Positions 10,834-21,758 are shown, counted from the first letter of the stretch. The stretch: 64,000 nucleotides of DNA from Promethearchaeota archaeon (GCA_030599585.1 JAUVNS010000003.1:224001-288000), one strand, 5' to 3'. Program-made: numbers and translations. The notes: generated by a model from the letters alone, not told the origin.

Positions 10834-11280
10834 TTATTTGAGAAATGCTCTCTTTCCTAAATAAATAAAAAGTTCTCCTAATTCAAAAACGGTTAGTGGA
10901 AAGATTAAATTTGCCATAGCATGACGTAAATCCTGCTTATCTTTACCAGCGACCATTAGTTTCTCAATATCTTCAACGTAATCATCCATATTCATGAATA
11001 ATATCTCAATTTTATCGCAACCAGTTAATTCCTCTATATCTTTATCCAAATGCGTTTCAACCTGGTTTAAAAGTCCTAATTTTAACTTTGGTTCTAACTC
11101 ATATTTGGATATGATTTCATTGATCTCTTCAAGAATTATATTTATGGTTAAGTTCCAATCTTTATTATCCTTATATTTGGGAATTAATACTTCGCTAATT
11201 ATTATTTCAAAAAGAGTTTGGGGTGCTTTATCGTCAAATTCTACCTCTGAACCATTCCTTAATTTTATTGTTTTAACCAT
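10834..11280 (-). CDS. Hypothetical protein
   Basis: ORF; likely start is ATG 11280 after GAGG. Confidence 0.6.
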   Translation of the reverse strand: MVKTIKLRNGSEVEFDDKAPQTLFEIIISEVLIPKYKDNKDWNLTINIILEEINEIISKYELEPKLKLGLLNQVETHLDKDIEELTGCDKIEILFMNMDDYVEDIEKLMVAGKDKQDLRHAMANLIFPLTVFELGELFIYLGKRAFLK

Positions 11281-11590
11281 TTCCAACCTCAACTCAATTA
11301 ATAAATTCTTCTTATTAATTAATAGACTAGGTTTTTATAAATTTTTTCGAACTTTTTAATTCGCGATTTGGCCATAACTATTCAAACTTTACACCAATTA
11401 AACTACGAGCATCTAAATACTACTTTTCTAAAAAACCCCCGACGATTTATTAAAGGTTTAAACTATTTTTACTATCTGTTCTTCTTGTTTTTTAAATAAA
11501 TTAAAAAATTAACTATTTATAACGACTAAATTATATTAAATTTTAAAGTTTTGAAACATTAATTTTATTAAAATTAATGTGTGGCGAATA

Positions 11591-12364
11591 ATGGAATTTA
11601 AAAAAATTTTGATTACTAATTTTGTTAAGAAATCTCTTGAAACCTATATCATAGATTTGGAATTTAAGAATGAAATAGGTAAAATCAAAATTGGTACTCT
11701 TGCGAGTTTAAGTCAAGAGCTTGTACAAGGTAGATTTTATGATGAGGAACCAGAATTACTATTATTACCTAGACCTGGTGTGTCCTTTCAATTAGGATTA
11801 GGCCCACTTACATTCAATGATACTAGTACTAAAAATCAACTCCAAGTTGGAAGTAATTTTCTTAAAATTATATTAAAAAGATATGAGAAGTGGGGTACGG
11901 AATATAATAAGATCAAGGAAATTTTTCAGCTCTTATATCCAATTTTAGAAGATATCACTATTAAAGGCTTTCAAATTGCTTGTATAAATAAATTTGATGA
12001 TATTAGAAGAGAGGAGGGGTTTCTTTTAAGTAATTTTTTTACACATTCTGTTGAATCCGATTTAAAAATAGAGTATGAAGATTTTCACCTAGGATTTGTC
12101 CCTCACCAATTAAAGAGAGATGATGAGATTGAAAAGATTGTTCTTAAATTACGCGGTAATCCTCCGAAAGACTCTGATTTCTTTCTTTTTAAGCTAGAGA
12201 GCCTTTTTTTTAAACGGAACTTAAATGTTAAGTTTTCTGATCCGAAATTGCTTAGTAGTATTAATTATGGGCATGATTTTCTAAATTATTTATTCGTAAA
12301 TTCCTTGAGTGATATTTATCGCAAAAGAATTGGATTATCTTTTGAATATTTAGAAGAAGGTTAA
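11591..12364 (+). CDS. TIGR04255-like protein
   Basis: Size ~260 aa; LQVGSNFL...YEKW...F and IKGFQIACINKF resemble the RIGLRYIN motif of the family. Confidence 0.5.
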   Translation: MEFKKILITNFVKKSLETYIIDLEFKNEIGKIKIGTLASLSQELVQGRFYDEEPELLLLPRPGVSFQLGLGPLTFNDTSTKNQLQVGSNFLKIILKRYEKWGTEYNKIKEIFQLLYPILEDITIKGFQIACINKFDDIRREEGFLLSNFFTHSVESDLKIEYEDFHLGFVPHQLKRDDEIEKIVLKLRGNPPKDSDFFLFKLESLFFKRNLNVKFSDPKLLSSINYGHDFLNYLFVNSLSDIYRKRIGLSFEYLEEG

Positions 12365-12382
12365 AAATGAAGGAATAATATT

Positions 12383-12916
12383 ATGGAAAGGATCGACACA
12401 ACACCTGATGAAAATTCAGAAACAGGTGAAATCAAAGAAGAGATATCAAAAAAACCATTAAATACTATAATTGAAAAAGTAACTACAGACTTTTTGGAAA
12501 GTGATAAAGATTTAGAGATTTCCGAAATTTTTAGCAGATTTATTTTAGAATTTATTGGACGAGATATATTTAATGATCCAGAATCCAATTTCAAGTTATA
12601 TGATATATTTGAACAATTTAATCAATCACTAATCAAACCACGATCAACCATAAAAGTTCCTCCAGATACCCCTCCAACAAAACCAATCCACTTTGAGGTA
12701 GATGCTAGTTTGATTGAAGAAATGATAAGAAGAGCTATTAAGGATTCAAAGATCTTTAATTTTATTCATTCATCTAAATGGAATGAGCTTAGAGTAGAAT
12801 TTTGTAAAAAAGATGAAATAAATTATCGTTGTATTGAGTCATTAGAAAAATTGATTATGTTTCTAAATCTGATGCAATTAAAAATGGAAAAATATGAATT
12901 AAAACAAGGATGGTAA
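12383..12916 (+). CDS. Hypothetical protein (middle gene of three-gene operon)
   Basis: 177 aa; acidic N-terminus; 18-nt and 4-nt gaps to neighbours. Confidence 0.55.
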   Translation: MERIDTTPDENSETGEIKEEISKKPLNTIIEKVTTDFLESDKDLEISEIFSRFILEFIGRDIFNDPESNFKLYDIFEQFNQSLIKPRSTIKVPPDTPPTKPIHFEVDASLIEEMIRRAIKDSKIFNFIHSSKWNELRVEFCKKDEINYRCIESLEKLIMFLNLMQLKMEKYELKQGW

Positions 12917-12920
12917 GACC

Positions 12921-14081
12921 TTGGAAGAAAAAAAAACAATTTTAGCTTACAATTGCCAAAAGGAAATAAATATAAAAGAAATTCAACAGGGTGATGTTTT
13001 TAAAAATATTCCTTTTTACTCTCCTGATTTTTTATTAAAATCATCAATAAATGAGATTAATATAAAAATTGACAACGATGTAGAATCCATTTTTGAGGAA
13101 ATAATTAAAAAAGGCAATGTTATAAACGCAAAAAGTATCATATTTCCAACATGGGCAATTTTGGGGAGCCAAGAATGTGATATCCGTGGAGGATATGATC
13201 TCATTTTTTTTCCTTTAGTAAAATATACAGAGATAGAAAAACAAGATGAGTTTGTTAAATTTATTGAAAAGGATATCCAAGGATGGACAAGATTCATGTA
13301 TGTTCCTAAAAGTGATTTAGCAGATAATAGATTTGGACCTTTTCGAGTTTTATTACAGAATCCTTTTTATATCTCTTATGAAATTATTGAAAAGAATCTT
13401 AAACATTGTTGGGCAACGCATATAGTTGAAAAGGCAAGAAGAGTCTTTGTGGGGAAAATAATAAATCTTTTCACAAGAACACCGGTTGATGAGTTAGTTT
13501 TTATAGAATTTAATCAGATCGAAAATTATTTTCAAAAAAAATGGCAAAAGGCATGGAATAAACAAAAAACTAATCCTTATGATAAATCTGCTGATGATAT
13601 AATTGAAAAAATAATGGATTTTTATTTTTTACTCAAACATGAGAATGAACAGGTTAAATTTCAAGAATTTAAAATTCTGCCACTCAATTTGCTAGATGAA
13701 ATCATTAAATTAACTGATAAATCTTGGATTTTCATTGAAGAGAATCCATTTATTTCATTTTATGAACAATTAAAAGAAGATAAGACGCTTAATTGGTTTA
13801 TAAGATTCTATAATTTCATTGATAAAACGATTTATGGTGAAGATTCAATTTTTAAGACAATAAAAGATCGTTTAATTTTAATTCAACAGTTTGAAAGTGA
13901 GGAAGATAAGGAATTTCTTAATTATAAAGAAAAAAATATTAGAGAAGATTATCACGAATTCCCTAAAAATATATTATATTCGAGGTTAGAATCACCTACA
14001 CTTCAAGAAGAGAAATTTTTATCTTATTGCAAGCCATTTGAGAAACTTAGGGGATTTTTATCTGAAATAGGAATACTTTAA
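12921..14081 (+). CDS. Hypothetical protein with PemK/MazF-like N-terminal domain
   Basis: IQQGDVF...AILGSQECDI...LIFFPL pattern; helical C-terminal extension. Confidence 0.45.
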   Translation: MEEKKTILAYNCQKEINIKEIQQGDVFKNIPFYSPDFLLKSSINEINIKIDNDVESIFEEIIKKGNVINAKSIIFPTWAILGSQECDIRGGYDLIFFPLVKYTEIEKQDEFVKFIEKDIQGWTRFMYVPKSDLADNRFGPFRVLLQNPFYISYEIIEKNLKHCWATHIVEKARRVFVGKIINLFTRTPVDELVFIEFNQIENYFQKKWQKAWNKQKTNPYDKSADDIIEKIMDFYFLLKHENEQVKFQEFKILPLNLLDEIIKLTDKSWIFIEENPFISFYEQLKEDKTLNWFIRFYNFIDKTIYGEDSIFKTIKDRLILIQQFESEEDKEFLNYKEKNIREDYHEFPKNILYSRLESPTLQEEKFLSYCKPFEKLRGFLSEIGIL

Positions 14082-14430
14082 TAGGGAAATTCTTATCATC
14101 TCTTAATATCATGAGTATATTTTTTTTGAAGTTAAATGTTTACCTAGATATTATTAAAATTTGGCTTTATAGTCACAATATGGATATTCATGACAGGTGT
14201 AAGCAAGATAACTTCGTTAGCATGCACAAGTATCAAGATTTTACAATGTTGAGATGATATTGCGACAGACAGTAAGTATTAAAAGCTTTCTTTGCTCTTA
14301 TCACTAACCAATAACAAATAAAATTATTTTTTTTGTAATTTTTAAATTAGTAAATCGCTGTGGTACGAAAATTAATAAGAACGAGTTTCCATCTTAAGTT
14401 CAAGCGTGAGACGCAAAAATTCAAACACCA

Positions 14431-15024
14431 TTGTTGGTAATTGTGAAAGATAAAGAAGAATTGGACTGGCTTCCTTCGGATAGCGAGATTTCTTTGGAAA
14501 GGGAAGTGAACGAAGAAGGGGCGGGTTTTATCTATAATCACGAGTTTAACAAGAGAATGAGAGAACTCCATACTACATACGATCTTCGGGAAGTTATGAC
14601 CTATGAGTCCAAAGATACTGCAGAACCTATTATTATGGGGGATGTAGAAGCATTTCGCTATGGTTTTACGTACCCTGAGAGCGAGTTTCGCAACTTTACT
14701 AAGAGCACGCTCACCAAAATTTTGAAAAATTTCGTTGAATTCTCTAGTTTAGCCGATATTCCTATAGCAAAAAGTATAGTTAATAACCCAACCAACATAG
14801 TCTTTAGTTATAACGAACTTGTTCATAACACTGTAATGTTTTTAACGCAACTTTTTGACTTAGAAGGCGTTAGAGCGCAGGTTAAGGCTTACTTAATGAA
14901 CCCTCATACATATAAAACAAGGGGATTAATACCTGCTTTAGAATATTTGCTCACTAATGAGCCTCGTATTACTGAATCGGAAAAGAGCGTGATTTCAAAG
15001 ATGTTAAATTTTTTACAAGAATAA
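14431..15024 (+). CDS. Hypothetical protein (start uncertain)
   Basis: 197 aa ORF with TTG start. Confidence 0.5.
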   Translation: MLVIVKDKEELDWLPSDSEISLEREVNEEGAGFIYNHEFNKRMRELHTTYDLREVMTYESKDTAEPIIMGDVEAFRYGFTYPESEFRNFTKSTLTKILKNFVEFSSLADIPIAKSIVNNPTNIVFSYNELVHNTVMFLTQLFDLEGVRAQVKAYLMNPHTYKTRGLIPALEYLLTNEPRITESEKSVISKMLNFLQE

Positions 15025-15130
15025 TTTTATTCTTTTGTTTTTGGGGCATTGAGATTATGCTTATATTTTTATTTAATGTTAATTAAGCGATAGTAAGACT
15101 AATATTGTACAAATTTCGGAAATTAGAATC

Positions 15131-17557
15131 ATGGCTGAATTCATGGTTAACAAACGTATCATGCTAAAGTTGGAAGGCCATAGTACCAACATCTATATAA
15201 ATGGAATGGAATTTATGCAATGCAAAAGGTTAGTTCTTAACATTCCTATAAAAGGTATAAGGTTATACGACGACATTGATTCTATCGACGAGGCTTCTGA
15301 GTATTACTATCACTACCTTTTAGAACACGAAATTCACGAAGAGAGGGACGGACGATTAATAGAGAAATATTACGATCACCAATACGAGATTTCGTACGAA
15401 GCGGAATTCTGGGCTCATTGTAGCAATCTTCAAACTTGGTGTGAACACGGATACGACACGCGAATTCTGAAAGCGGATTTAGCCTTCCCGCTATTAAAAA
15501 GGCTAACCGATGTCGGGGATCCGTTGGCAAGAAAAGTGTTTAAAGAAGAAATCGCTAAAAGGATAGAAACGGGGTATGCTCCCGTCATAATATATTTAAT
15601 CAAAGAGAAGTATCTTAATTATCTGGAAGACGAAGAATTAAAAAGCGCGTTAAGCGATCCTTTAGGAAATATCCTAACATTCATTTTCAAATCCCTAACA
15701 TCTTCTGACAACGAGGCACAAAACGCAGCTCTGAAACTAAGTAAATATTTAAACGACCAATTACAGCAAAAAGTTGTATCTTTTTTGCTTAATCATGGCG
15801 AAATTATTAAAGAATCACGTTACCTTAAAAGCGACGAAATGAGACCAATTTATCGTCAAATTGTGATTGAAGTATTCAGGTCAAAAAAATTCAACACGAT
15901 AAAAAAAGGGGCTACGCTATTTTGGTTAAAATTGTACATTGATGATTTTAAGAGTAGGGATGAAGAAGCCAAGAAGTTGATAAAGAGCCATATCAAAGAA
16001 GTTTTTAGAATTGGTAGTAACGAAGAAGTTTCGTCTTTAATTACAGGCAACTATCTCTCCGTACTAAACAGCGAAGAATTACGCTCCTTAATATCATCTT
16101 CTCATCATTTGTTCGTTAAATGTTGTATCGATGCGATACAATCTGAAACATCTTGTTATAAAAAACCCCATTTAGTGAAAAATATAATTAAGCTGCTTGT
16201 GAAGGCAAGGGATAGAACTATTCTCGATCTTGTTGATAGCCAACTACGAGAAAAAATCGAGTCTTATACTTATTTTAGCGACTCTGAGCTAAAAATGTTT
16301 GAGGATGTTAACTTACTTCATGCTACTTTTCCAGAGAAAAGTGAAGATTTTTTGGGAAGCAACGCCCAAGAACTCGTTTCTTTATTGGAAGAAAAGATTG
16401 ATACACGTTTTTTGACACTAGAGCTCTTACAAGCAAAACTTGAGCTCATAGGCTCGGAAGTTATAGAACCAATTTTCAAAGTTTTATGTAGAACCAATCA
16501 CCACGCTGATAGTTGGGATAGAAAGGACCATTATTCTAGCGTGCTAATAAATAATATCGATTTTGAGCCATCGGTAATAAAAGAAAAATTTTTCAACTAC
16601 ATTAAATCGCACCGTTTAACTTTGTCCGAACATGAATATTTCTTTAAAGGCTTTGGACACACAAACCTTTCAAGAGAAGAATTTTGGGGCTTATTTGAAT
16701 ACGGCGAACATATTGTCGCCCTTGAAAAAGCTCTAGGGTTTATCGCATGGGCTGAGAGTCAAACAAATCCCGAAGACGGTGTTAATGTAAGAGTTACTAT
16801 CGAAAAAAATGTTATCACTCGGTTAAAAATTTACGGATTAACCGAATACGCCGATGTGGGACCGATGGTAACCTTACCTCAGTGTATTAGAGAAATTAAA
16901 TCGCTTGAGGAATTAGATGTCGAAAGCTCTGGGATGTTCCACGTTCCTGAATGGATTGATCAATTACCCAATTTAAAAGTAATTAAGTTTGGGGGTAATG
17001 GTTTGCGCTCGATCCCGGAGACTATTGGAAACCTTAAATTATTAAAAGAATTAGATTTGCAAGTTAGTCACATTCACAAGCTTCCCACATCAATATGCAA
17101 CCTTAAAAACTTAAAAAACTTAAATTTAGCGAGTGCAAAACTCCAAAAAGTACCAAAAGATATTGGGAACTTGAAGGACCTTAAAGTTTTAGATTTGCAT
17201 GATAATAAGATAGCAGCACTTCCCAGTAATATTGGAAATTTACATAACTTAGAATACTTGGATTTATCTAGAAACCCTAATTGCTACGACATTCCCGATA
17301 TGTTCGAACAATTAAGAGAGTTAAAAGTTTTAAGCCTAAGGGGTCTTAAATTCACACAAGTCCCCGAGTCTATTAAAAATTTGACTAACCTTAAAAAACT
17401 TAGTTTAAGTTATTGTACTAGTTTAACAGAAATACCCGAATGGATCTCAGAACTTACCAATCTTGAAGAACTAGATTTGCGTGGGACTAATTTACCAAAA
17501 ATTCCCGCATCAGTTAAATCTCTCGAAAAAAATTTGAAGATATTAAGGCTGAATTGA
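15131..17557 (+). CDS. Leucine-rich repeat protein with Lokiarchaeal N-terminal domain
   Basis: About 9-10 LxxLxLxxN repeats of ~23 aa at the C-terminus; N-terminal EFWAHCSNLQTW...YDTRIL...LAFPLLKRL...GD motif. Confidence 0.9.
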   Translation: MAEFMVNKRIMLKLEGHSTNIYINGMEFMQCKRLVLNIPIKGIRLYDDIDSIDEASEYYYHYLLEHEIHEERDGRLIEKYYDHQYEISYEAEFWAHCSNLQTWCEHGYDTRILKADLAFPLLKRLTDVGDPLARKVFKEEIAKRIETGYAPVIIYLIKEKYLNYLEDEELKSALSDPLGNILTFIFKSLTSSDNEAQNAALKLSKYLNDQLQQKVVSFLLNHGEIIKESRYLKSDEMRPIYRQIVIEVFRSKKFNTIKKGATLFWLKLYIDDFKSRDEEAKKLIKSHIKEVFRIGSNEEVSSLITGNYLSVLNSEELRSLISSSHHLFVKCCIDAIQSETSCYKKPHLVKNIIKLLVKARDRTILDLVDSQLREKIESYTYFSDSELKMFEDVNLLHATFPEKSEDFLGSNAQELVSLLEEKIDTRFLTLELLQAKLELIGSEVIEPIFKVLCRTNHHADSWDRKDHYSSVLINNIDFEPSVIKEKFFNYIKSHRLTLSEHEYFFKGFGHTNLSREEFWGLFEYGEHIVALEKALGFIAWAESQTNPEDGVNVRVTIEKNVITRLKIYGLTEYADVGPMVTLPQCIREIKSLEELDVESSGMFHVPEWIDQLPNLKVIKFGGNGLRSIPETIGNLKLLKELDLQVSHIHKLPTSICNLKNLKNLNLASAKLQKVPKDIGNLKDLKVLDLHDNKIAALPSNIGNLHNLEYLDLSRNPNCYDIPDMFEQLRELKVLSLRGLKFTQVPESIKNLTNLKKLSLSYCTSLTEIPEWISELTNLEELDLRGTNLPKIPASVKSLEKNLKILRLN

Positions 17558-17625
17558 TTCGAAGAATTAAGGACTTATCCGTGATTTTAGATATTCGTTT
17601 TTCTTGGGTAAAAAGAAGGAAAACT

Positions 17626-17778
17626 GGAAACCACGACGTTCAAAAATATAAAAAGAGGAGACGTATTTATCTAATAATTACCCGCTCAATTCTCTTGTAA
17701 CTGCGCTCAGGGTTAAGGGTTGAGGTATTGAGTCCGAAGACTCTTAGGTATAAGAATATATTATTAATCATGGTTTCC
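17626..17778 (-). ncRNA. Putative structured ncRNA, family unassigned
   Basis: Long terminal stem GGAAACCAUGA/UCGUGGUUUCC with G-U pairs valid only on the minus strand; GAGUC-UUCG-GACUC hairpin; TTTAAATA upstream; U-rich tract downstream. Confidence 0.6.
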
Positions 17779-17964
17779 AATTTTTTTTTCTATTGTAATA
17801 TTAATTACGTAACTATTTAAAGATATCTATCTTTTCACATGACAAAAAAGAAAATCTAAATTACAATCATAATTGATGATTAAGTTGCATCGTTGTAAGA
17901 TTTCTTAAAAATCTATTTGAATTTTTACGAGGATAAAAGTTTTAATTAAAAACAATGATAAGAA

Positions 17965-18786
17965 TTATAAATTGATTTTATTCGTAATTTTTGTAATAGT
18001 TTTTCGAGAAAGTATAATCTTTTTTTCCAAAGACAATTCCATAATCGAATTATATATCAAAAATATCCCGTATTTCTTTTTAAAATTTTTTATTACCTCT
18101 CGAACGAATATCTTATCGTCAGTACTTCCCTTTTTCTTGATTTTATAAAAATTCAATATATTCTCCTTCAAAAGCGATTTAATGTTTTTATCGTAAAAGC
18201 GAGCTATCTTAAATCCAGCGAACTCTGTGCACATTATATTCCAACTATGAATTGCTGTAAAATTGGAATCACGAAGAAAATAACTGTCGTATCGATTTTT
18301 AAACAAGACTCGTTTTTTCTTCTTTATTGGTTTAGAATAATGGAGTGCGAAAGGCGTTTTCAATGACGCTTTATTTCTTCTTATATCTAAGTTTACGTAA
18401 TACACACGACCTCCATACATTCGGTGCAAATAATTTTCTGCTAAACTTATCTTTATCAACTTATCATCTATAGGCCTTTTAGACGTTGCTACGCATTTTC
18501 CTTCTCCGTATAACATCCATAGGACGAAAATTCCCTTTGTGTTATAGTCCTTCGTTCTCGCTATTATTTCCTTAACAGAAATTTTAGAATTCTGAACTTC
18601 AACAACGACTTCTTTACCGGTATCAAGTTTAAAATATACATCGGCATACCGATTGCCAAAGTACTTTTCAAGTGATCTTTTTACAATTGATCCATCATTT
18701 TCATATAAATGCTTGTATAAGAGAAGTTTGATGGTTTTATGAAAAGATGATTCTGCTGGAGTACTAAGGAGTGAAATTTCTTTCAT
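17965..18786 (-). CDS. CoiA-like PD-(D/E)xK nuclease-domain protein
   Basis: ESSFHKTIK, RYADVY, VVVEVQNS, RTKDY...VLW. Confidence 0.7.
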   Translation of the reverse strand: MKEISLLSTPAESSFHKTIKLLLYKHLYENDGSIVKRSLEKYFGNRYADVYFKLDTGKEVVVEVQNSKISVKEIIARTKDYNTKGIFVLWMLYGEGKCVATSKRPIDDKLIKISLAENYLHRMYGGRVYYVNLDIRRNKASLKTPFALHYSKPIKKKKRVLFKNRYDSYFLRDSNFTAIHSWNIMCTEFAGFKIARFYDKNIKSLLKENILNFYKIKKKGSTDDKIFVREVIKNFKKKYGIFLIYNSIMELSLEKKIILSRKTITKITNKINL

Positions 18787-18892
18787 CTATATGGAATATC
18801 AAGAAAATTGTTCTTTTGTTAAAGTTGTATCAACCGACTAATATATGTGGACGGTATTTCAATTTCTTGAATTTTCACTAAAAGTCTCACAT

Positions 18893-19588
18893 TTACCAGT
18901 GAATTCGAAATAAAAAAAATAAGATTGTAACAAAATTACCCGTAAAAAACAAAACAGAGCTTCCCTTTCTTCCTTGAGGAAGGACGTCTCGAATTATCAT
19001 ATAAAATAGTATTCCTAAAACAAATGCCAGCACATAATTTGTTAACAAATGATCAAGTTCTAATATAATTCCTAAAACCGCACCTGCTAAAGGTAAAACT
19101 GAAAGAATGATTTTGCTATATTTTTCGTTTAACCGAGCGTCTATTGAATCCAAGGAGATGGAGGAGGTTAACATTTGCAGCAATAGCGGAGCTGATAAAG
19201 TGACAACTACGGAAAAATCTAATTCGACTAATGAAGCAACTATGAATCCTATTAAAAAATTATCTATACCAAATCCAATAATGTGTACTATTTTTAGGTT
19301 TTCTAATAGTTCTTGCTTATCCGTTACATGTCTATATATATATTTCTCAGCAAGGTGCATTAATAGAAAACCAATCAGCATGAAAAGAAATAAAAATTCA
19401 GTAACTCCCAAAGAAATAACATCGGGCACTAAGATCAGAAATAAAAGTGAAATGAGCAATCCTGAGCTGAAACTCAGAACAGAATCGCGATGTTCTCCAA
19501 TTAAACCTGAAATTCTATGACCGAAAAAATCTACTAATCCCAAAACTACAGCAATTATAAGTATTACTACTATTGTTAGGTCAGCCAT
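18893..19588 (-). CDS. ZIP-like metal transporter / membrane protein
   Basis: About 8 TM helices; SFSSGLLISLLFLILVP, GILFYMIIRDVLP. Confidence 0.6.
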   Translation of the reverse strand: MADLTIVVILIIAVVLGLVDFFGHRISGLIGEHRDSVLSFSSGLLISLLFLILVPDVISLGVTEFLFLFMLIGFLLMHLAEKYIYRHVTDKQELLENLKIVHIIGFGIDNFLIGFIVASLVELDFSVVVTLSAPLLLQMLTSSISLDSIDARLNEKYSKIILSVLPLAGAVLGIILELDHLLTNYVLAFVLGILFYMIIRDVLPQGRKGSSVLFFTGNFVTILFFLFRIHW

Positions 19589-19833
19589 ATCCTTTCCCTT
19601 AGGTATAAGATAATCTTGATGATTATTAAGAAATAAACTTTAATCTAATATTAATGTTGAGAGAGTTTGAACGTCTATTCATAATCTGACTTACTATTCT
19701 GAGAATGTTTTTAATAAAATAATATCTGATAGTTGAAAAAATTGAATTGATTAAAATTTTTCTTTAAATAGAATTAGAATATTAAAAATCCAATAAACTG
19801 TATTCAGTAAAAAAGCAATTAAAACTACAAAAT

Positions 19834-20553
19834 GTGATAAAAATGGTAGATAAACATAGTCAAAGTTTTTTCGGACAGTCAACAGGACTTACGCTTCTTA
19901 GCTCTTCAAAATCGGATTCGTTTATATTTTTTAAGTGTATTAAGAAAAAACCAGACGGTTCGTGGGAAAAACCATCTTTAGGAGAAGGAAAGACGATAAA
20001 ATGTAACTTAGACGAAATAGTTATGATTCTTGATGTATTACAAAGAAATAGCGATTCCTGGTCTAGCTTTCATAATTTTAACGATGTGAAGACTCAGATA
20101 TCTTTTAAATGGGAAGACGGGGCTAAGAAAAAACTGCTGATTTATATTGGTAACTATTCTAAAATGTTGAACTTTTCTCAAACTGAGATTTTCCGGTTAT
20201 TATTAAAGCATATTTTAGAAGAAAAAATAGAGTTTTCTACGATTTCAAAAATGCCTTCAGGAAAAACTGTTGTTAGCGGTTATAAAAATAAGGAACAAGG
20301 GAATCAAAAAAATAACGCTACGGCACTACCTGTCGTTAAAGAGTCCATCGAAAATAATGAAACCGATGTAAGTCAAATAAATGGAGTTATAGAGGGAGAG
20401 ACTGAAAAAGCGTTGCTTATCCAATTTAATAAGGATAAAGAAATTTGGATTCCTAAATCGGTAATCCGATCAAATTACGATTCTTCAAATGATATCTCTC
20501 AAAACTTTATAATTGATAACTGGATTCTTAAAAAAAATAATATTCCAAATTAA
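19834..20553 (+). CDS. Hypothetical protein, possible Whirly/PC4-like ssDNA-binding N-domain
   Basis: FIFFKCIKKKPDGSWEK...KTIKCNLDEIVMIL; C-terminal ETEKALLI...IWIPKS module. Confidence 0.45.
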   Translation: MIKMVDKHSQSFFGQSTGLTLLSSSKSDSFIFFKCIKKKPDGSWEKPSLGEGKTIKCNLDEIVMILDVLQRNSDSWSSFHNFNDVKTQISFKWEDGAKKKLLIYIGNYSKMLNFSQTEIFRLLLKHILEEKIEFSTISKMPSGKTVVSGYKNKEQGNQKNNATALPVVKESIENNETDVSQINGVIEGETEKALLIQFNKDKEIWIPKSVIRSNYDSSNDISQNFIIDNWILKKNNIPN

Positions 20554-20564
20554 CTAACTTTTTT

Positions 20565-21758
20565 TTATCTTTGGGAAATATAGGGCAAGTATTCGTTATC
20601 GCATAGATTTTTTAATTGTTTATTATAATCAATCATTTTTTTTGTAATTTCTGGATGAGAAAGGAGCTCGACCTCCGATTTATCGTCGTGATCCCATAAT
20701 AAATAAGGCGTGTCCTCATTCGGAACTTCTTTTTTAACTTGTTCTATCCAGTCGTTGGGTAATTCATTTTTCAATTCTACATCTAGCATCCTCGCAAGGA
20801 ATATGCTCCAAGCTCTTGGAACGACTGTCATGAGGTAACCACCGCCTCCTACCGCAACCCATCTATTATTGCAATAATCGTGAGAAGAAGTATAGAGAGT
20901 TTGAGCAATATTCTTGTAGGCCGATATAGAAGCTCCCATTTGAGTTAGAGGATCGTCGAAGTACATATCCACGCCTAATTGAGTAAATAGCAAATCGGGA
21001 GAATAAGCTTCTAAAATTCTGGGCACGCAGTATCTAAATAGTTTTACAAGCATTCTATTATTGGTTCCAGGGAGTAAAGGAAAATTCAATGAAAAGCCTT
21101 TTCCCGCCCCTTCACCAACCTCATTTGTGTGTCCTGTGCCGGGAAATAAAAATTTTCCACTTTCATGAAAAGAAATAGTTAAAACGTTAGGATCGTCGTA
21201 AAATAACCATTGTACGCCATCCCCATGGTGACAATCGATGTCTAAATATGCTATTTTAATATCTTTTTTTAAATGCTTAAGGTGATGTATCGCAACCGCG
21301 ATATCGTTGAAAATACAAAACCCTGAAGCTGTTTTTTTTTGAGCATGGTGTAATCCTCCAGCAGGATTAAAAGCTATATTAACATCATCATTCTTCCAAA
21401 CTGAATCTGCAGCTACAATACTTGCTCCACATACAAGAGCGGAAGCTTCATACATTCCGCTAAATATGGGATTGTCACCTGGGCCTAAACCGTATATATA
21501 GGGTTGAATCGTTCTATCTTCAGGGTTTGCGCTTAATTTTTTAACTACTTCAACATATTCTGGATCGTGTGCTCGTTCTATTTGTTCTTGGGTTGCTACT
21601 ATTGGTTCTTTTATTTCTAGCCTTTTATGCCTCAGAAGATTTAGTTTTTCCATGAGATCATATGTTAATTTCAGTCGCAATGGGCGTAACGGGTGATTAG
21701 GTCCAAAATCGTATTTTCCGTATTGGTCTGTATAAACTAAAGCAACTTTGTCATGCAT
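20565..21758 (-). CDS. acuC: Zn-dependent deacetylase, AcuC/class I HDAC-like
   Basis: HPLRPLR, GGLHHA, SGFCIFND, DIDCHHGDG, DPL, GGGGY. Confidence 0.9.
   Translation of the reverse strand: MHDKVALVYTDQYGKYDFGPNHPLRPLRLKLTYDLMEKLNLLRHKRLEIKEPIVATQEQIERAHDPEYVEVVKKLSANPEDRTIQPYIYGLGPGDNPIFSGMYEASALVCGASIVAADSVWKNDDVNIAFNPAGGLHHAQKKTASGFCIFNDIAVAIHHLKHLKKDIKIAYLDIDCHHGDGVQWLFYDDPNVLTISFHESGKFLFPGTGHTNEVGEGAGKGFSLNFPLLPGTNNRMLVKLFRYCVPRILEAYSPDLLFTQLGVDMYFDDPLTQMGASISAYKNIAQTLYTSSHDYCNNRWVAVGGGGYLMTVVPRAWSIFLARMLDVELKNELPNDWIEQVKKEVPNEDTPYLLWDHDDKSEVELLSHPEITKKMIDYNKQLKNLCDNEYLPYISQR

What the first reader, a model, noticed from the sequence alone, without database searches (positions are those of the whole stretch)
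17610..17821. Unassigned ~150-180 nt structured RNA gene with promoter and terminator signals
Seen on the minus strand: TTTAAATA (17821-17814), then ends that pair over more than 20 bp (GGAAACCAUGA-UUAA-U-AAUAUA with UAUAUU-U-UUGA..UCGUGGUUUCC). The G-U pairs would be A-C mismatches on the other strand. Inside are a C(UUCG)G tetraloop hairpin (17730-17743) and further hairpins (CUCA/UGAG; CAGUU/AAUUG). A U-rich tract follows. It does not resemble tRNA, 5S, SRP or RNase P RNA. Inference: a stand-alone ncRNA with a closed-end, multi-branch layout like Y, vault or 6S RNA.
Basis: partly seen in the sequence, partly recalled or inferred. Interest (0 to 1): 0.72.

Follow-up and report, generated by a model that had tools for sequence, protein, structure and literature searches.

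The report
New Lokiarchaeal small RNA gene
This is a real, separately transcribed non-coding RNA gene of about 180 bases, present once per genome in one large family of Lokiarchaeia (Asgard archaea) and absent from RNA databases; a long closing stem holds out an almost invariant, G-poor single-stranded loop whose function is still unknown.

Summary
On the minus strand a TATA box (17821-17814) precedes a roughly 182-nt RNA (17791 to about 17610). Its ends form a 14-bp stem, and it contains a UUCG hairpin.

- **Not a known RNA.** No Rfam family matches. The 5S, SRP, RNase P, 16S and 23S genes lie elsewhere in the genome. It is not a tRNA, a repeat or a coding gene.
- **Distribution.** A covariance model finds one copy in 110 of 131 sampled genomes of the same Lokiarchaeal family. 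It finds none in 125 genomes of 26 other Asgard families.
- **Structure.** The closing stem and the hairpin covary strongly: 17 of 18 pairs change on both sides.
- **Loop.** About 70 nt between the stem strands are nearly invariant, 5.7% G, and built from short C-rich modules (AUACCU twice, AACCCU twice, CUCCUC) followed by a U tract. Hairpins of about 30 nt are inserted between modules in some species, including this one.
- **Expression.** Metatranscriptome contigs from two studies cover the RNA and stop at 17791, the predicted start.

Function was not established. My best guess is a trans-acting RNA that pairs with G-rich, Shine-Dalgarno-like sites. A protein-binding scaffold is nearly as likely.

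First readers of this scan flagged homologues in at least eight other genomes. None of those notes was followed up.

The parts
17814..17821 (-). Archaeal TATA box (TTTAAATA); purine-rich conserved bases lie just upstream
   Evidence: Read. It is conserved in the genus alignment. A TATA-like box lies 29-43 nt (mode 36) upstream of the model start in 44 of 57 homologues.
17791..17791 (-). Probable transcription start (A), 26-27 nt downstream of the TATA centre
   Evidence: RNA contigs of runs X1 and X2, from two studies, both stop at 17791. A DNA run continues to 17855. This is a weak hint. The spacing agrees with the known archaeal promoter geometry (own knowledge).
17781..17790 (-). A-rich 5' leader, which could pair with the U run after the stem
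   Evidence: A-rich in the genus alignment.
17767..17780 (-). 5' strand of the closing stem; the inner AUGAU is conserved in sequence
   Evidence: Helix 1: 13 of 14 pairs change on both sides. One genus has an entirely different stem sequence.
17744..17762 (-). Invariant single-stranded block A, ending in the first AUACCU module
   Evidence: Invariant columns. UAUUCUUAUACC is present in 55 of 57 homologues.
17730..17743 (-). Hairpin P2 (5-bp stem, UUCG loop)
   Evidence: Helix 2: 4 of 4 pairs change on both sides. Relatives have GNRA and other loops. The hairpin is missing in one genus.
17708..17729 (-). Invariant block B: second AUACCU module followed by two AACCCU modules, 7 nt apart
   Evidence: AACCCUUAACCCU is present in 50 of 57 homologues and ACCCU in 57 of 57.
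17678..17707 (-). Lineage-specific 30-nt hairpin insertion; its GGG can pair with the preceding CCC
   Evidence: Absent from most relatives. A compensatory change occurs in the nearest relative. Similar insertions of about 30 nt lie at other module junctions in other species.
17650..17677 (-). Invariant block C: UUAUUAGAUAAAUA, then the CUCCUC module and a U5 tract
   Evidence: UCUCCUC is present in 49 of 57 homologues. A U5+ run lies in the last 45 nt of the loop in 51 of 57.
17638..17649 (-). Variable A/U-rich linker with a second U5 tract
17624..17637 (-). 3' strand of the closing stem
   Evidence: helix 1.
17610..17623 (-). Pyrimidine-rich tail with U4 and U5 runs; probable terminator and 3' end
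   Evidence: A T5+ run lies within 40 nt after the stem in 46 of 57 homologues. The exact 3' end was not observed.

Best explanation
This is a genuine, independently transcribed small non-coding RNA gene, about 182 nt here and about 140-150 nt in most relatives. It belongs to a new RNA family confined to one family of Lokiarchaeia. That part is about 95% certain.

A covarying closing stem of 14 bp or more holds a loop of roughly 80-160 nt. Apart from one hairpin, the loop is kept single-stranded by G depletion. It consists of short invariant C-rich modules (AUACCU twice, AACCCU twice, CUCCUC) and a U tract.

Inferred and not shown: the RNA acts in trans. Its exposed C-rich modules pair with G-rich sequences, above all Shine-Dalgarno-type sites of mRNAs (GAGGU, GAGGAG, AGGUA). 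It would then work as a multi-seed translational regulator. One of the cell's Sm-like proteins probably sits on the U tract.

The confidence figure refers to this mechanism.
For: **Evidence that the gene is real**
- Single copy in this genome.
- One copy in 110 of 131 family genomes, covering 12 of 13 genera. None in 24 genomes of other families of the class, and none in 125 genomes of 26 other families of the phylum.
- An exact 26-mer of the core occurs in 84 contigs of a 185,579-species collection. 83 are labelled as Asgard or uncultured archaea and one as a bacterium (Nanopelagicaceae), which looks like mis-binning.
- Covariation supports the structure.
- The promoter box lies at a fixed distance.
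- RNA contigs from two studies cover 17708-17791 and stop at 17791.

**Evidence for the mechanism**
- The loop is 5.7% G and 21.8% C, in a genome with 32.6% G+C. It therefore cannot fold on itself and is free to pair.
- Three of the five modules are complementary to pentamers enriched upstream of start codons here: GAGGT 4.5-fold, GAGGA 3.8-fold, AGGTA 3.0-fold. The 16S 3' end reads GAUCACCUCCU.
- Hairpin insertions are tolerated only between modules. This is expected if each short module acts on its own.
- In several of these insertions (seen by eye in 5-6 of the 8), a GGG(U) run can pair with the neighbouring ACCC. This shows the modules readily pair with G runs.
- One 23-nt antisense match covers positions -4 to -26 of a small gene, and a 15-nt match covers its paralogue.
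- The genome has four LSM-domain genes.
- Precedents, from my own knowledge: the C-rich sRNA RsaE/RoxS of Firmicutes and sRNA41 of Methanosarcina mazei.
Against: - No conserved target was found. The only long antisense match lies in a gene present in 3 of 61 family genomes, and the homologue in G046 lacks the site.
- A 25-mer complementary to the core, allowing 3 mismatches, matches only the RNA genes themselves in 60 family genomes.
- Duplex energies with 4,985 start regions are no better than with the reversed RNA.
- 7-mers complementary to the modules are no more enriched at start sites than control Shine-Dalgarno variants.
- Invariance of about 70 nt across 12 genera is far more than seed pairing usually needs. 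It points to protein contacts.
- Sm binding was not tested.
- The RNA evidence comes from contigs only, so the 3' end, abundance and strand were not measured.
Confidence: 0.35

Rival explanations
1. Protein-binding scaffold or sponge. Each invariant 7-nt module would be a binding site for a single-strand RNA-binding protein, for example a KH-type protein that reads ACCC/CCCU tetrads, or an Sm ring on the U tract. The RNA would be the RNA subunit of, or a titrating decoy for, a Lokiarchaeal RNP, with no base-paired target.
For: - Whole modules are invariant, not just short seeds, across 12 genera.
- ACC(U/C) motifs repeat at 7-nt spacing, and insertions fall only between modules.
- No RNA target was found by any search.
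- The genome has four LSM genes.
- From my own knowledge: KH domains of PCBP/hnRNP K bind C-rich tetrads, and Y RNAs carry a pyrimidine-rich protein-binding loop closed by a terminal stem.
Against: - No candidate protein was identified.
- The conserved neighbours do not match the RNA's distribution. The 150-aa protein also occurs in sister families that lack the RNA, and so does the HDAC gene.
- No protein gene is exclusively linked to the RNA.
Confidence: 0.3
2. A cis-acting element: either a 5' leader or riboswitch of the conserved 150-aa gene downstream, or a 3' UTR element of the upstream HDAC or CoiA-like gene.
For: - The 150-aa gene lies downstream on the same strand in 25 of 37 loci with long flanks.
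- The HDAC gene is the upstream neighbour in several genera.
Against: - The RNA has its own TATA box, and RNA contigs start at 17791.
- T-runs follow the stem in 46 of 57 homologues.
- In this genome the 150-aa gene is 6.3 kb away.
- In two genomes the RNA is inverted relative to both neighbours, yet fully conserved.
- Different genes are wedged in on both sides.
Confidence: 0.04
3. A small mRNA for a micro-protein of about 20-35 codons that starts at the ATG inside the stem, possibly a type I toxin-like system. Some first readers proposed this for homologues.
For: An ATG lies in the 5' strand of the stem in 49 of 57 homologues, and open frames of 19-43 codons exist in many.
Against: - The invariant block is read in all three frames: 31, 15 and 3 sequences.
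- 8 sequences have no ATG, and 6 stop after 2-3 codons.
- The nucleotide sequence is invariant without third-position variation.
Confidence: 0.02
4. A divergent member of a known RNA class that Rfam models miss: 5S rRNA, C/D or H/ACA guide RNA, Y, vault or 6S RNA, an Sm-class snRNA-like RNA, or a telomerase-like template RNA.
For: - Rfam also misses this family's true 5S rRNA, so misses do happen.
- The stem carries AUGAU, which resembles box C.
- The AACCCU repeat looks like a telomerase template.
- AUACCU is complementary to AGGUAU, which resembles a 5' splice site, and a U tract resembling an Sm site follows.
Against: - The true 5S gene is on another contig, and RNase P and SRP RNA were found elsewhere.
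- AUGAU is Watson-Crick paired, and no CUGA abuts the stem.
- Complementarity to rRNA, its flanks or other stable RNAs does not exceed shuffles.
- No TROVE gene was found.
- Insertions split the two AACCCU units in several species, so they are not one contiguous template.
- No Rfam hit appears even at E up to 10.
Confidence: 0.04

Closest known systems
RsaE/RoxS, the C-rich regulatory sRNA of Bacillales (own knowledge)
   Same: - A small RNA with its own promoter and an unusually conserved sequence across a whole order or family.
- Several unpaired C-rich motifs complementary to G-rich ribosome-binding sites.
- Single copy.
   Different: - No sequence or Rfam relationship.
- RsaE shows its motifs in hairpin loops, whereas here they lie in one large loop closed by a long terminal stem.
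- This RNA is archaeal.
- No targets were found here.
sRNA41 of Methanosarcina mazei, an archaeal sRNA that masks ribosome-binding sites (own knowledge)
   Same: An archaeal trans-acting sRNA proposed to pair with Shine-Dalgarno regions through anti-SD-like sequence.
   Different: - It comes from an unrelated lineage with unrelated sequence.
- It has defined operon targets, whereas none is known here.
Y RNA (Ro60 RNP) and its bacterial relatives
   Same: - About 100-150 nt, with 5' and 3' ends joined in a long stem.
- A pyrimidine-rich internal loop and a 3' U tail.
   Different: - No Ro60/TROVE gene in the genome.
- No match to the Y_RNA or YrlA models.
- No conserved bulged-C helix was seen.
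6S RNA
   Same: A single-copy, conserved small RNA, apparently expressed, with a closing stem and often a conserved gene neighbour.
   Different: - 6S is a rod with a two-sided central bubble and is conserved in shape rather than sequence.
- Here the interior is one-sided single strand, conserved in sequence.
- No Rfam 6S match.
Sm-class snRNAs (U1, U7) of eukaryotes
   Same: - A short single-stranded recognition sequence plus a U-rich site next to a stem.
- AUACCU resembles the U1 5' end.
- LSM genes are present.
   Different: - No Rfam snRNA match.
- The recognition sequences are internal, not at the 5' end.
- No spliceosomal introns are known in the host (own knowledge).
- The resemblance was noticed by eye only.
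Ciliate telomerase RNA
   Same: - About 150-nt RNA with a long-range closing stem and a G-free CA-rich repeat of about one and a half units.
- A U-run terminator.
   Different: - The two repeat units are separated by hairpin insertions in several species.
- Only one genomic occurrence of the complementary repeat exists, and it is the gene itself.
- No TERT domain was found, though that search had no positive control.

Membership tests
Any Rfam 15 family | Covariance-model score at or above the gathering threshold | tested here: not met
   No hit in the 64-kb window at gathering thresholds. At E up to 10 over 17450-18000 the only hit on this RNA (minus strand) is a tmRNA fragment at 7.6 bits; the other five hits, none above 19.4 bits, lie on the opposite strand.
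5S rRNA | Being the genome's 5S gene (loop C CCGAAC and loop E motifs, three-way junction) | tested here: not met
   RF00001 does not match this element. A separate 5S-like gene with those motifs lies at G000:C9, about 122005-122125.
SRP RNA / RNase P RNA / tRNA | Model match, or being the only candidate in the genome | tested here: not met
   RNase P RNA is on C7 and SRP RNA is on C22. ARAGORN finds nothing in the window.
C/D box sRNA | Box C (RUGAUGA) and box D (CUGA) facing each other next to the terminal stem to form a K-turn, with a 10-12-nt guide complementary to rRNA or tRNA | tested here: not met
   The conserved AUGAU is Watson-Crick paired with AUC(N)U in the stem, and no CUGA abuts the 3' strand. 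rRNA complementarity is no better than shuffles.
Y RNA | A Ro60 (TROVE domain) partner encoded in the genome | tested here: not met
   PF05731 finds nothing in G000, which is 100% complete by markers. The controls rang in Deinococcus and Bacteroides.
Vault RNA | A major vault protein encoded in the genome | tested here: inconclusive
   PF01505 finds nothing, but no control genome rang either. The Rfam Vault model gives no hit.
6S RNA | An extended rod with a central two-sided bubble that mimics an open promoter | tested here: not met
   The supported structure is a terminal stem plus one hairpin around a one-sided single strand. No 6S model hit. RNA polymerase binding cannot be tested with these tools.
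Telomerase RNA | A contiguous template of about 1.5 repeats, a TERT partner and matching genomic repeats | tested here: not met
   Hairpins are inserted between the two AACCCU units in several species. The complementary 12-mer occurs once in the genome, in the gene itself. The TERT RBD search was empty but had no positive control.
Sm-class snRNA-like RNA | A single-stranded Sm site (A-U4-6-G) bound by an Sm ring | tested here: inconclusive
   A U5+ tract lies next to the stem in 51 of 57 homologues, and the genome has four LSM genes. The flanking bases vary, no snRNA model matches, and binding cannot be tested.
C-rich anti-SD sRNAs (RsaE-like; similarity in mode of action only) | Unpaired C-rich motifs complementary to Shine-Dalgarno sequences, plus demonstrable mRNA targets | tested here: inconclusive
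   The motifs are present and unpaired, and their complements are SD-type pentamers enriched at starts. No conserved target was found and there is no specific enrichment.
MITE / dispersed repeat | Many dispersed copies with target-site duplications | tested here: not met
   One copy in G000. There are one, rarely two, copies per genome in the family.
Micro-ORF mRNA / type I toxin | A conserved reading frame | tested here: not met
   Frames split 31/15/3, 8 sequences lack an ATG, and 6 stop after 2-3 codons.

The most novel reading that the evidence does not exclude
The RNA is the RNA subunit of a so far unknown Lokiarchaeal ribonucleoprotein built like a eukaryotic small RNP. A closing stem and a U-rich Sm-type site would anchor one of the four Sm-like proteins. 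Invariant single-stranded modules would read other nucleic acids or proteins. That would make it an archaeal counterpart of Sm-class or Y-type RNPs in the lineage closest to eukaryotes.
Probability: 0.12. Interest if true: 0.85.

Novelty: new variant of a known kind. Interest (0 to 1): 0.6.

Why it matters
- **A gap in the inventory.** Beyond rRNA, tRNA, SRP and RNase P RNA, the non-coding RNAs of Asgard archaea are almost uncharted. Two full-text literature searches found nothing on such an RNA.
- **What this RNA offers.** It is a family-wide, single-copy RNA that appears in metatranscriptomes. Its core is invariant across 12 genera, which normally signals an important RNP or regulator.
- **Immediate uses.** It gives a concrete handle for pull-downs in enrichment cultures. 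The covariance model can annotate more than 100 genomes. The gene is also a clean lineage marker for this Lokiarchaeal family.
- **If it binds Sm-like proteins.** It would then bear on how small RNPs arose before eukaryotes.

Tried and rejected
- **Thermodynamic test.** The MFE z-score is -0.85, which is not significant. Structure support therefore rests on covariation only.
- **RNAalifold on the MAFFT alignment.** It recovered only part of the stem because the stems were misaligned. This was fixed with a covariance-model alignment.
- **Guide-RNA idea.** The longest complementarity to 16S/23S is 9 nt Watson-Crick, within what shuffles give. The same holds for the rRNA flanks, 5S, SRP and RNase P RNA.
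- **5S idea.** The Rfam 5S model finds nothing in this genome, which briefly made this RNA a candidate. A divergent true 5S gene was then located on C9.
- **Antisense target on C21.** A 23-nt match covers the ribosome-binding region of two tiny paralogous genes. It was rejected as the conserved target because the gene occurs in 3 of 61 genomes, and the homologue examined (G046) lacks the site.
- **Family-wide target search.** A 25-mer complementary to the core, with 3 mismatches allowed, found only the RNA genes themselves.
- **Start-region duplex scan.** The reversed-sequence control scored as well as the RNA, so the scan is uninformative.
- **Enrichment of module complements at starts.** It equals that of generic SD variants.
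- **Counterparts in sister families.** I looked downstream of the HDAC orthologue and upstream of the 150-aa gene. Only chance-level model hits appeared, and one lies inside a HAD-hydrolase coding start.
- **Neighbour Pfam scans.** The neighbours are an LRR protein, a CoiA-like nuclease, a weak ZIP-like hit and an HDAC. The 150-aa protein has no family. None of this suggests an RNA partner.
- **3' half in RNA runs.** RNA-run contigs did not cover 17612-17677. The contigs come from relatives that lack the 30-nt insertion and break there, so this says nothing about the 3' end.
- **Vault and TERT domain searches.** Both were empty but lacked positive controls.

Full report
**What is in the sequence**

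On the minus strand, TTTAAATA lies at 17821-17814. A 14-bp stem follows, formed by 17780-17767 and 17637-17624. Inside it are a GAGUC-UUCG-GACUC hairpin (17743-17730) and a further hairpin (within 17707-17678). U runs lie at 17623-17620 and 17614-17610.

The element sits in a 407-nt gap. On one side is a CoiA-like nuclease gene on the same strand, upstream. On the other is a convergent LRR gene.

Two of its details are local to this genome. The extension of the stem beyond 14 bp is not kept in relatives. The CUCA/UGAG pairing depends on a lineage-specific insertion.

Folding energy alone is unremarkable, with z = -0.85 on the minus strand and +1.30 on the plus strand.

**What it is not**

- No Rfam family matches at gathering thresholds anywhere in the window. 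At E up to 10 around the element the only hit on this RNA is a 7.6-bit tmRNA fragment; the other weak hits (at most 19.4 bits) lie on the opposite strand.
- ARAGORN finds no tRNA.
- The genome's 16S and 23S genes, RNase P RNA and SRP RNA lie on other contigs.
- The Rfam 5S model finds nothing in this genome and almost nothing in the family. Weak hits in relatives carry the classical 5S motifs, and they lead by BLAST to a separate gene on contig C9. The element is therefore not the 5S gene either.
- It is single-copy, so it is not a MITE.
- It does not code for protein. The ATG in the stem opens frames that read the invariant block in all three phases (31, 15 and 3 sequences). Eight homologues lack the ATG, and six stop after two or three codons.

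**Conservation and distribution**

BLAST found the element in most genomes of the same genus. I built a covariance model from those sequences.

| Sample | Genomes with a match |
|---|---|
| Own family (12 of 13 genera) | 110 of 131 |
| Three sister families of the order | 0 of 19 |
| Other families of the class (rebuilt model) | 0 of 24 |
| 26 other families of the phylum | 0 of 125 |

Matches are essentially one per genome. Many of the non-matching family genomes are incomplete.

An exact 26-mer of the core occurs in 84 contigs of a 185,579-species collection. 83 of them are labelled as Asgard or uncultured archaea, mostly Promethearchaeota (the current name for the Loki lineage), and one carries a bacterial label that looks wrong.

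Looking at the syntenic positions in sister families gave nothing credible.

**Structure**

On the model-based alignment of 57 homologues, the closing stem and the hairpin are strongly supported:

- 89.3% of cells are paired, against 73.8% in shuffles.
- 17 of 18 pairs show changes on both sides.
- The covariation score is 0.433, against 0.175 for shuffles and at most 0.085 when partners are slid.

In one genus the stem has an entirely different sequence yet still pairs. Frequent U-G pairs fix the strand.

Between the stem strands lies a loop of 81-160 nt, median 103. Its conserved columns are 5.7% G and 21.8% C, in a genome of 32.6% G+C. It therefore cannot fold on itself.

About 70 nt of the loop are invariant or nearly so across the family. 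They read as short modules: AUACCU twice (flanking the hairpin), AACCCU twice at 7-nt spacing, a UUAUUAGAUAAAUA stretch, CUCCUC and a U5 tract.

One genus has a shorter version without the hairpin and with only one AUACCU.

Hairpins of about 28-33 nt are inserted in several species at different junctions between modules, never inside one. In several of them (seen by eye in 5-6 of the 8) a GGG(U) run is placed so that it can pair with the adjacent ACCC. The 30-nt segment 17707-17678 of this window is one such insertion.

**Transcription**

A TATA-like box lies 29-43 nt upstream of the model start in 44 of 57 homologues, with the mode at 36 nt. A T5+ run follows the stem in 46 of 57.

Three metatranscriptome runs from two studies hold short contigs that cover 17708-17791. 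In two runs, from different studies, the contigs stop exactly at 17791. A run of unrecorded library type (treated here as DNA), from the same study as two of the three RNA runs, continues through the promoter to 17855. Position 17791 is 26-27 nt downstream of the TATA centre, which is the usual archaeal spacing (own knowledge).

These are contigs from close relatives, not reads. They show presence in RNA libraries and hint at the start site. They do not show the 3' end, the level or the strand.

**Genomic context**

The ancestral order appears to be HDAC-domain gene, then the RNA, then an uncharacterised 150-aa gene, all on one strand.

- In several genera other genes are wedged in on either side. 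In this genome these are the CoiA-like nuclease and two more genes upstream, and an LRR gene and a three-gene cassette downstream. The 150-aa gene is 6.3 kb away here.
- In two genomes the RNA alone is inverted.
- The HDAC and the 150-aa gene also occur in sister families without the RNA.

No protein gene shares the RNA's distribution, so context does not name a partner.

**Function**

Searches for a base-pairing partner were negative or uninformative:

- rRNAs, rRNA flanks and other stable RNAs show no complementarity beyond shuffles.
- The family-wide search for the complement of the core found only the RNA genes.
- The scan of all start regions did no better than a reversed control.
- 7-mer enrichment at start sites equals that of generic SD variants.

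The single long antisense match is 23 nt over the ribosome-binding region of two tiny paralogous genes on C21. That gene is sporadic, and its homologue in G046 lacks the site.

What remains is the design itself. A stem holds out G-free, modular, invariant motifs. Three of them are complementary to the SD-type pentamers enriched upstream of start codons here, and they resemble the 16S 3' end. A U tract follows, in a genome with four Sm-like genes.

I therefore favour a trans-acting RNA that pairs through several C-rich seeds with G-rich ribosome-binding sites (35%). A protein scaffold or sponge follows closely (30%), because whole-module invariance is more than seeds need.

Cis-regulatory, coding and known-class readings are each below 5%. 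The remaining probability is for something not yet imagined.

**Comparison with known systems**

The RNA would work most like the C-rich sRNAs RsaE/RoxS and the archaeal sRNA41. It looks most like a Y RNA or a ciliate telomerase RNA: a closing stem, a pyrimidine-rich loop and a U tail. It is a member of none of them.

- The Rfam models fail.
- Ro60 is absent.
- The template-like repeat is split by insertions.
- The box C-like AUGAU is simply part of a helix.

**Verdict**

This is a real, new, family-specific Lokiarchaeal ncRNA with an unusual architecture and unknown function.

First readers of this scan flagged homologues in at least eight other genomes. None of those notes had been followed up. 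Their micro-ORF and toxin readings are refuted here. Their notes on anti-SD-like motifs and repeated AUACCU/AACCCU units agree with what I found.

Noticed in passing
G000:C9:~122005-122125 (minus), held as L082; not in the window: The 5S rRNA of this Lokiarchaeal family is divergent. Rfam RF00001 finds nothing in this 100%-complete genome and passes its cut-off in only 1 of 61 family genomes. A 5S-like gene with the loop C and loop E motifs does exist.
   Followed up: partly
G000:C21:239706-239945 and 240358-240627 (minus), held as L081: Two paralogous tiny genes (79 and 90 aa, no Pfam family) have 5' UTRs with 23-nt and 15-nt complementarity to the RNA core, directly upstream of the start codon. 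The gene is sporadic (3 of 61 family genomes), and the G046 homologue lacks the site.
   Followed up: yes
window 10837-21758 and loci L087-L106: The flanks of the RNA gene behave as an insertion hot spot. The ancestral order is HDAC, RNA, 150-aa gene. It is interrupted in different genera by a CoiA-like nuclease, a Whirly-like gene, a ZIP-like gene, an LRR protein and a three-gene cassette. In two genomes the RNA alone is inverted.
   Followed up: partly
window 10837-11271 (minus); L091:5459-5896: A highly conserved 150-aa protein (57-87% identity across genera of the family) with no Pfam family. It is present in the own family and two sister families and is often the downstream neighbour of the RNA.
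   Followed up: partly
L181 (WJIS01000119.1) 2040-2541; G068 contigs C98 and C116: One genome has two tandem copies of the RNA gene about 475 nt apart. Another has two divergent copies on different contigs, and both copies lack the CUCCUC module.
   Followed up: no
L179 (DATKTW010000080.1) and several JBHL... records: Contigs carrying the exact RNA core are labelled Nanopelagicaceae bacterium, or Thor-, Odin-, Hod- and Hermod-archaeota. These labels look like mis-binning or mislabelling of Lokiarchaeal contigs.
   Followed up: no
L118-L121, downstream of the HDAC orthologue in the sister family: In the sister family, which includes closed genomes, the HDAC gene is followed directly by a HAD-type hydrolase gene instead of the RNA.
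   Followed up: no
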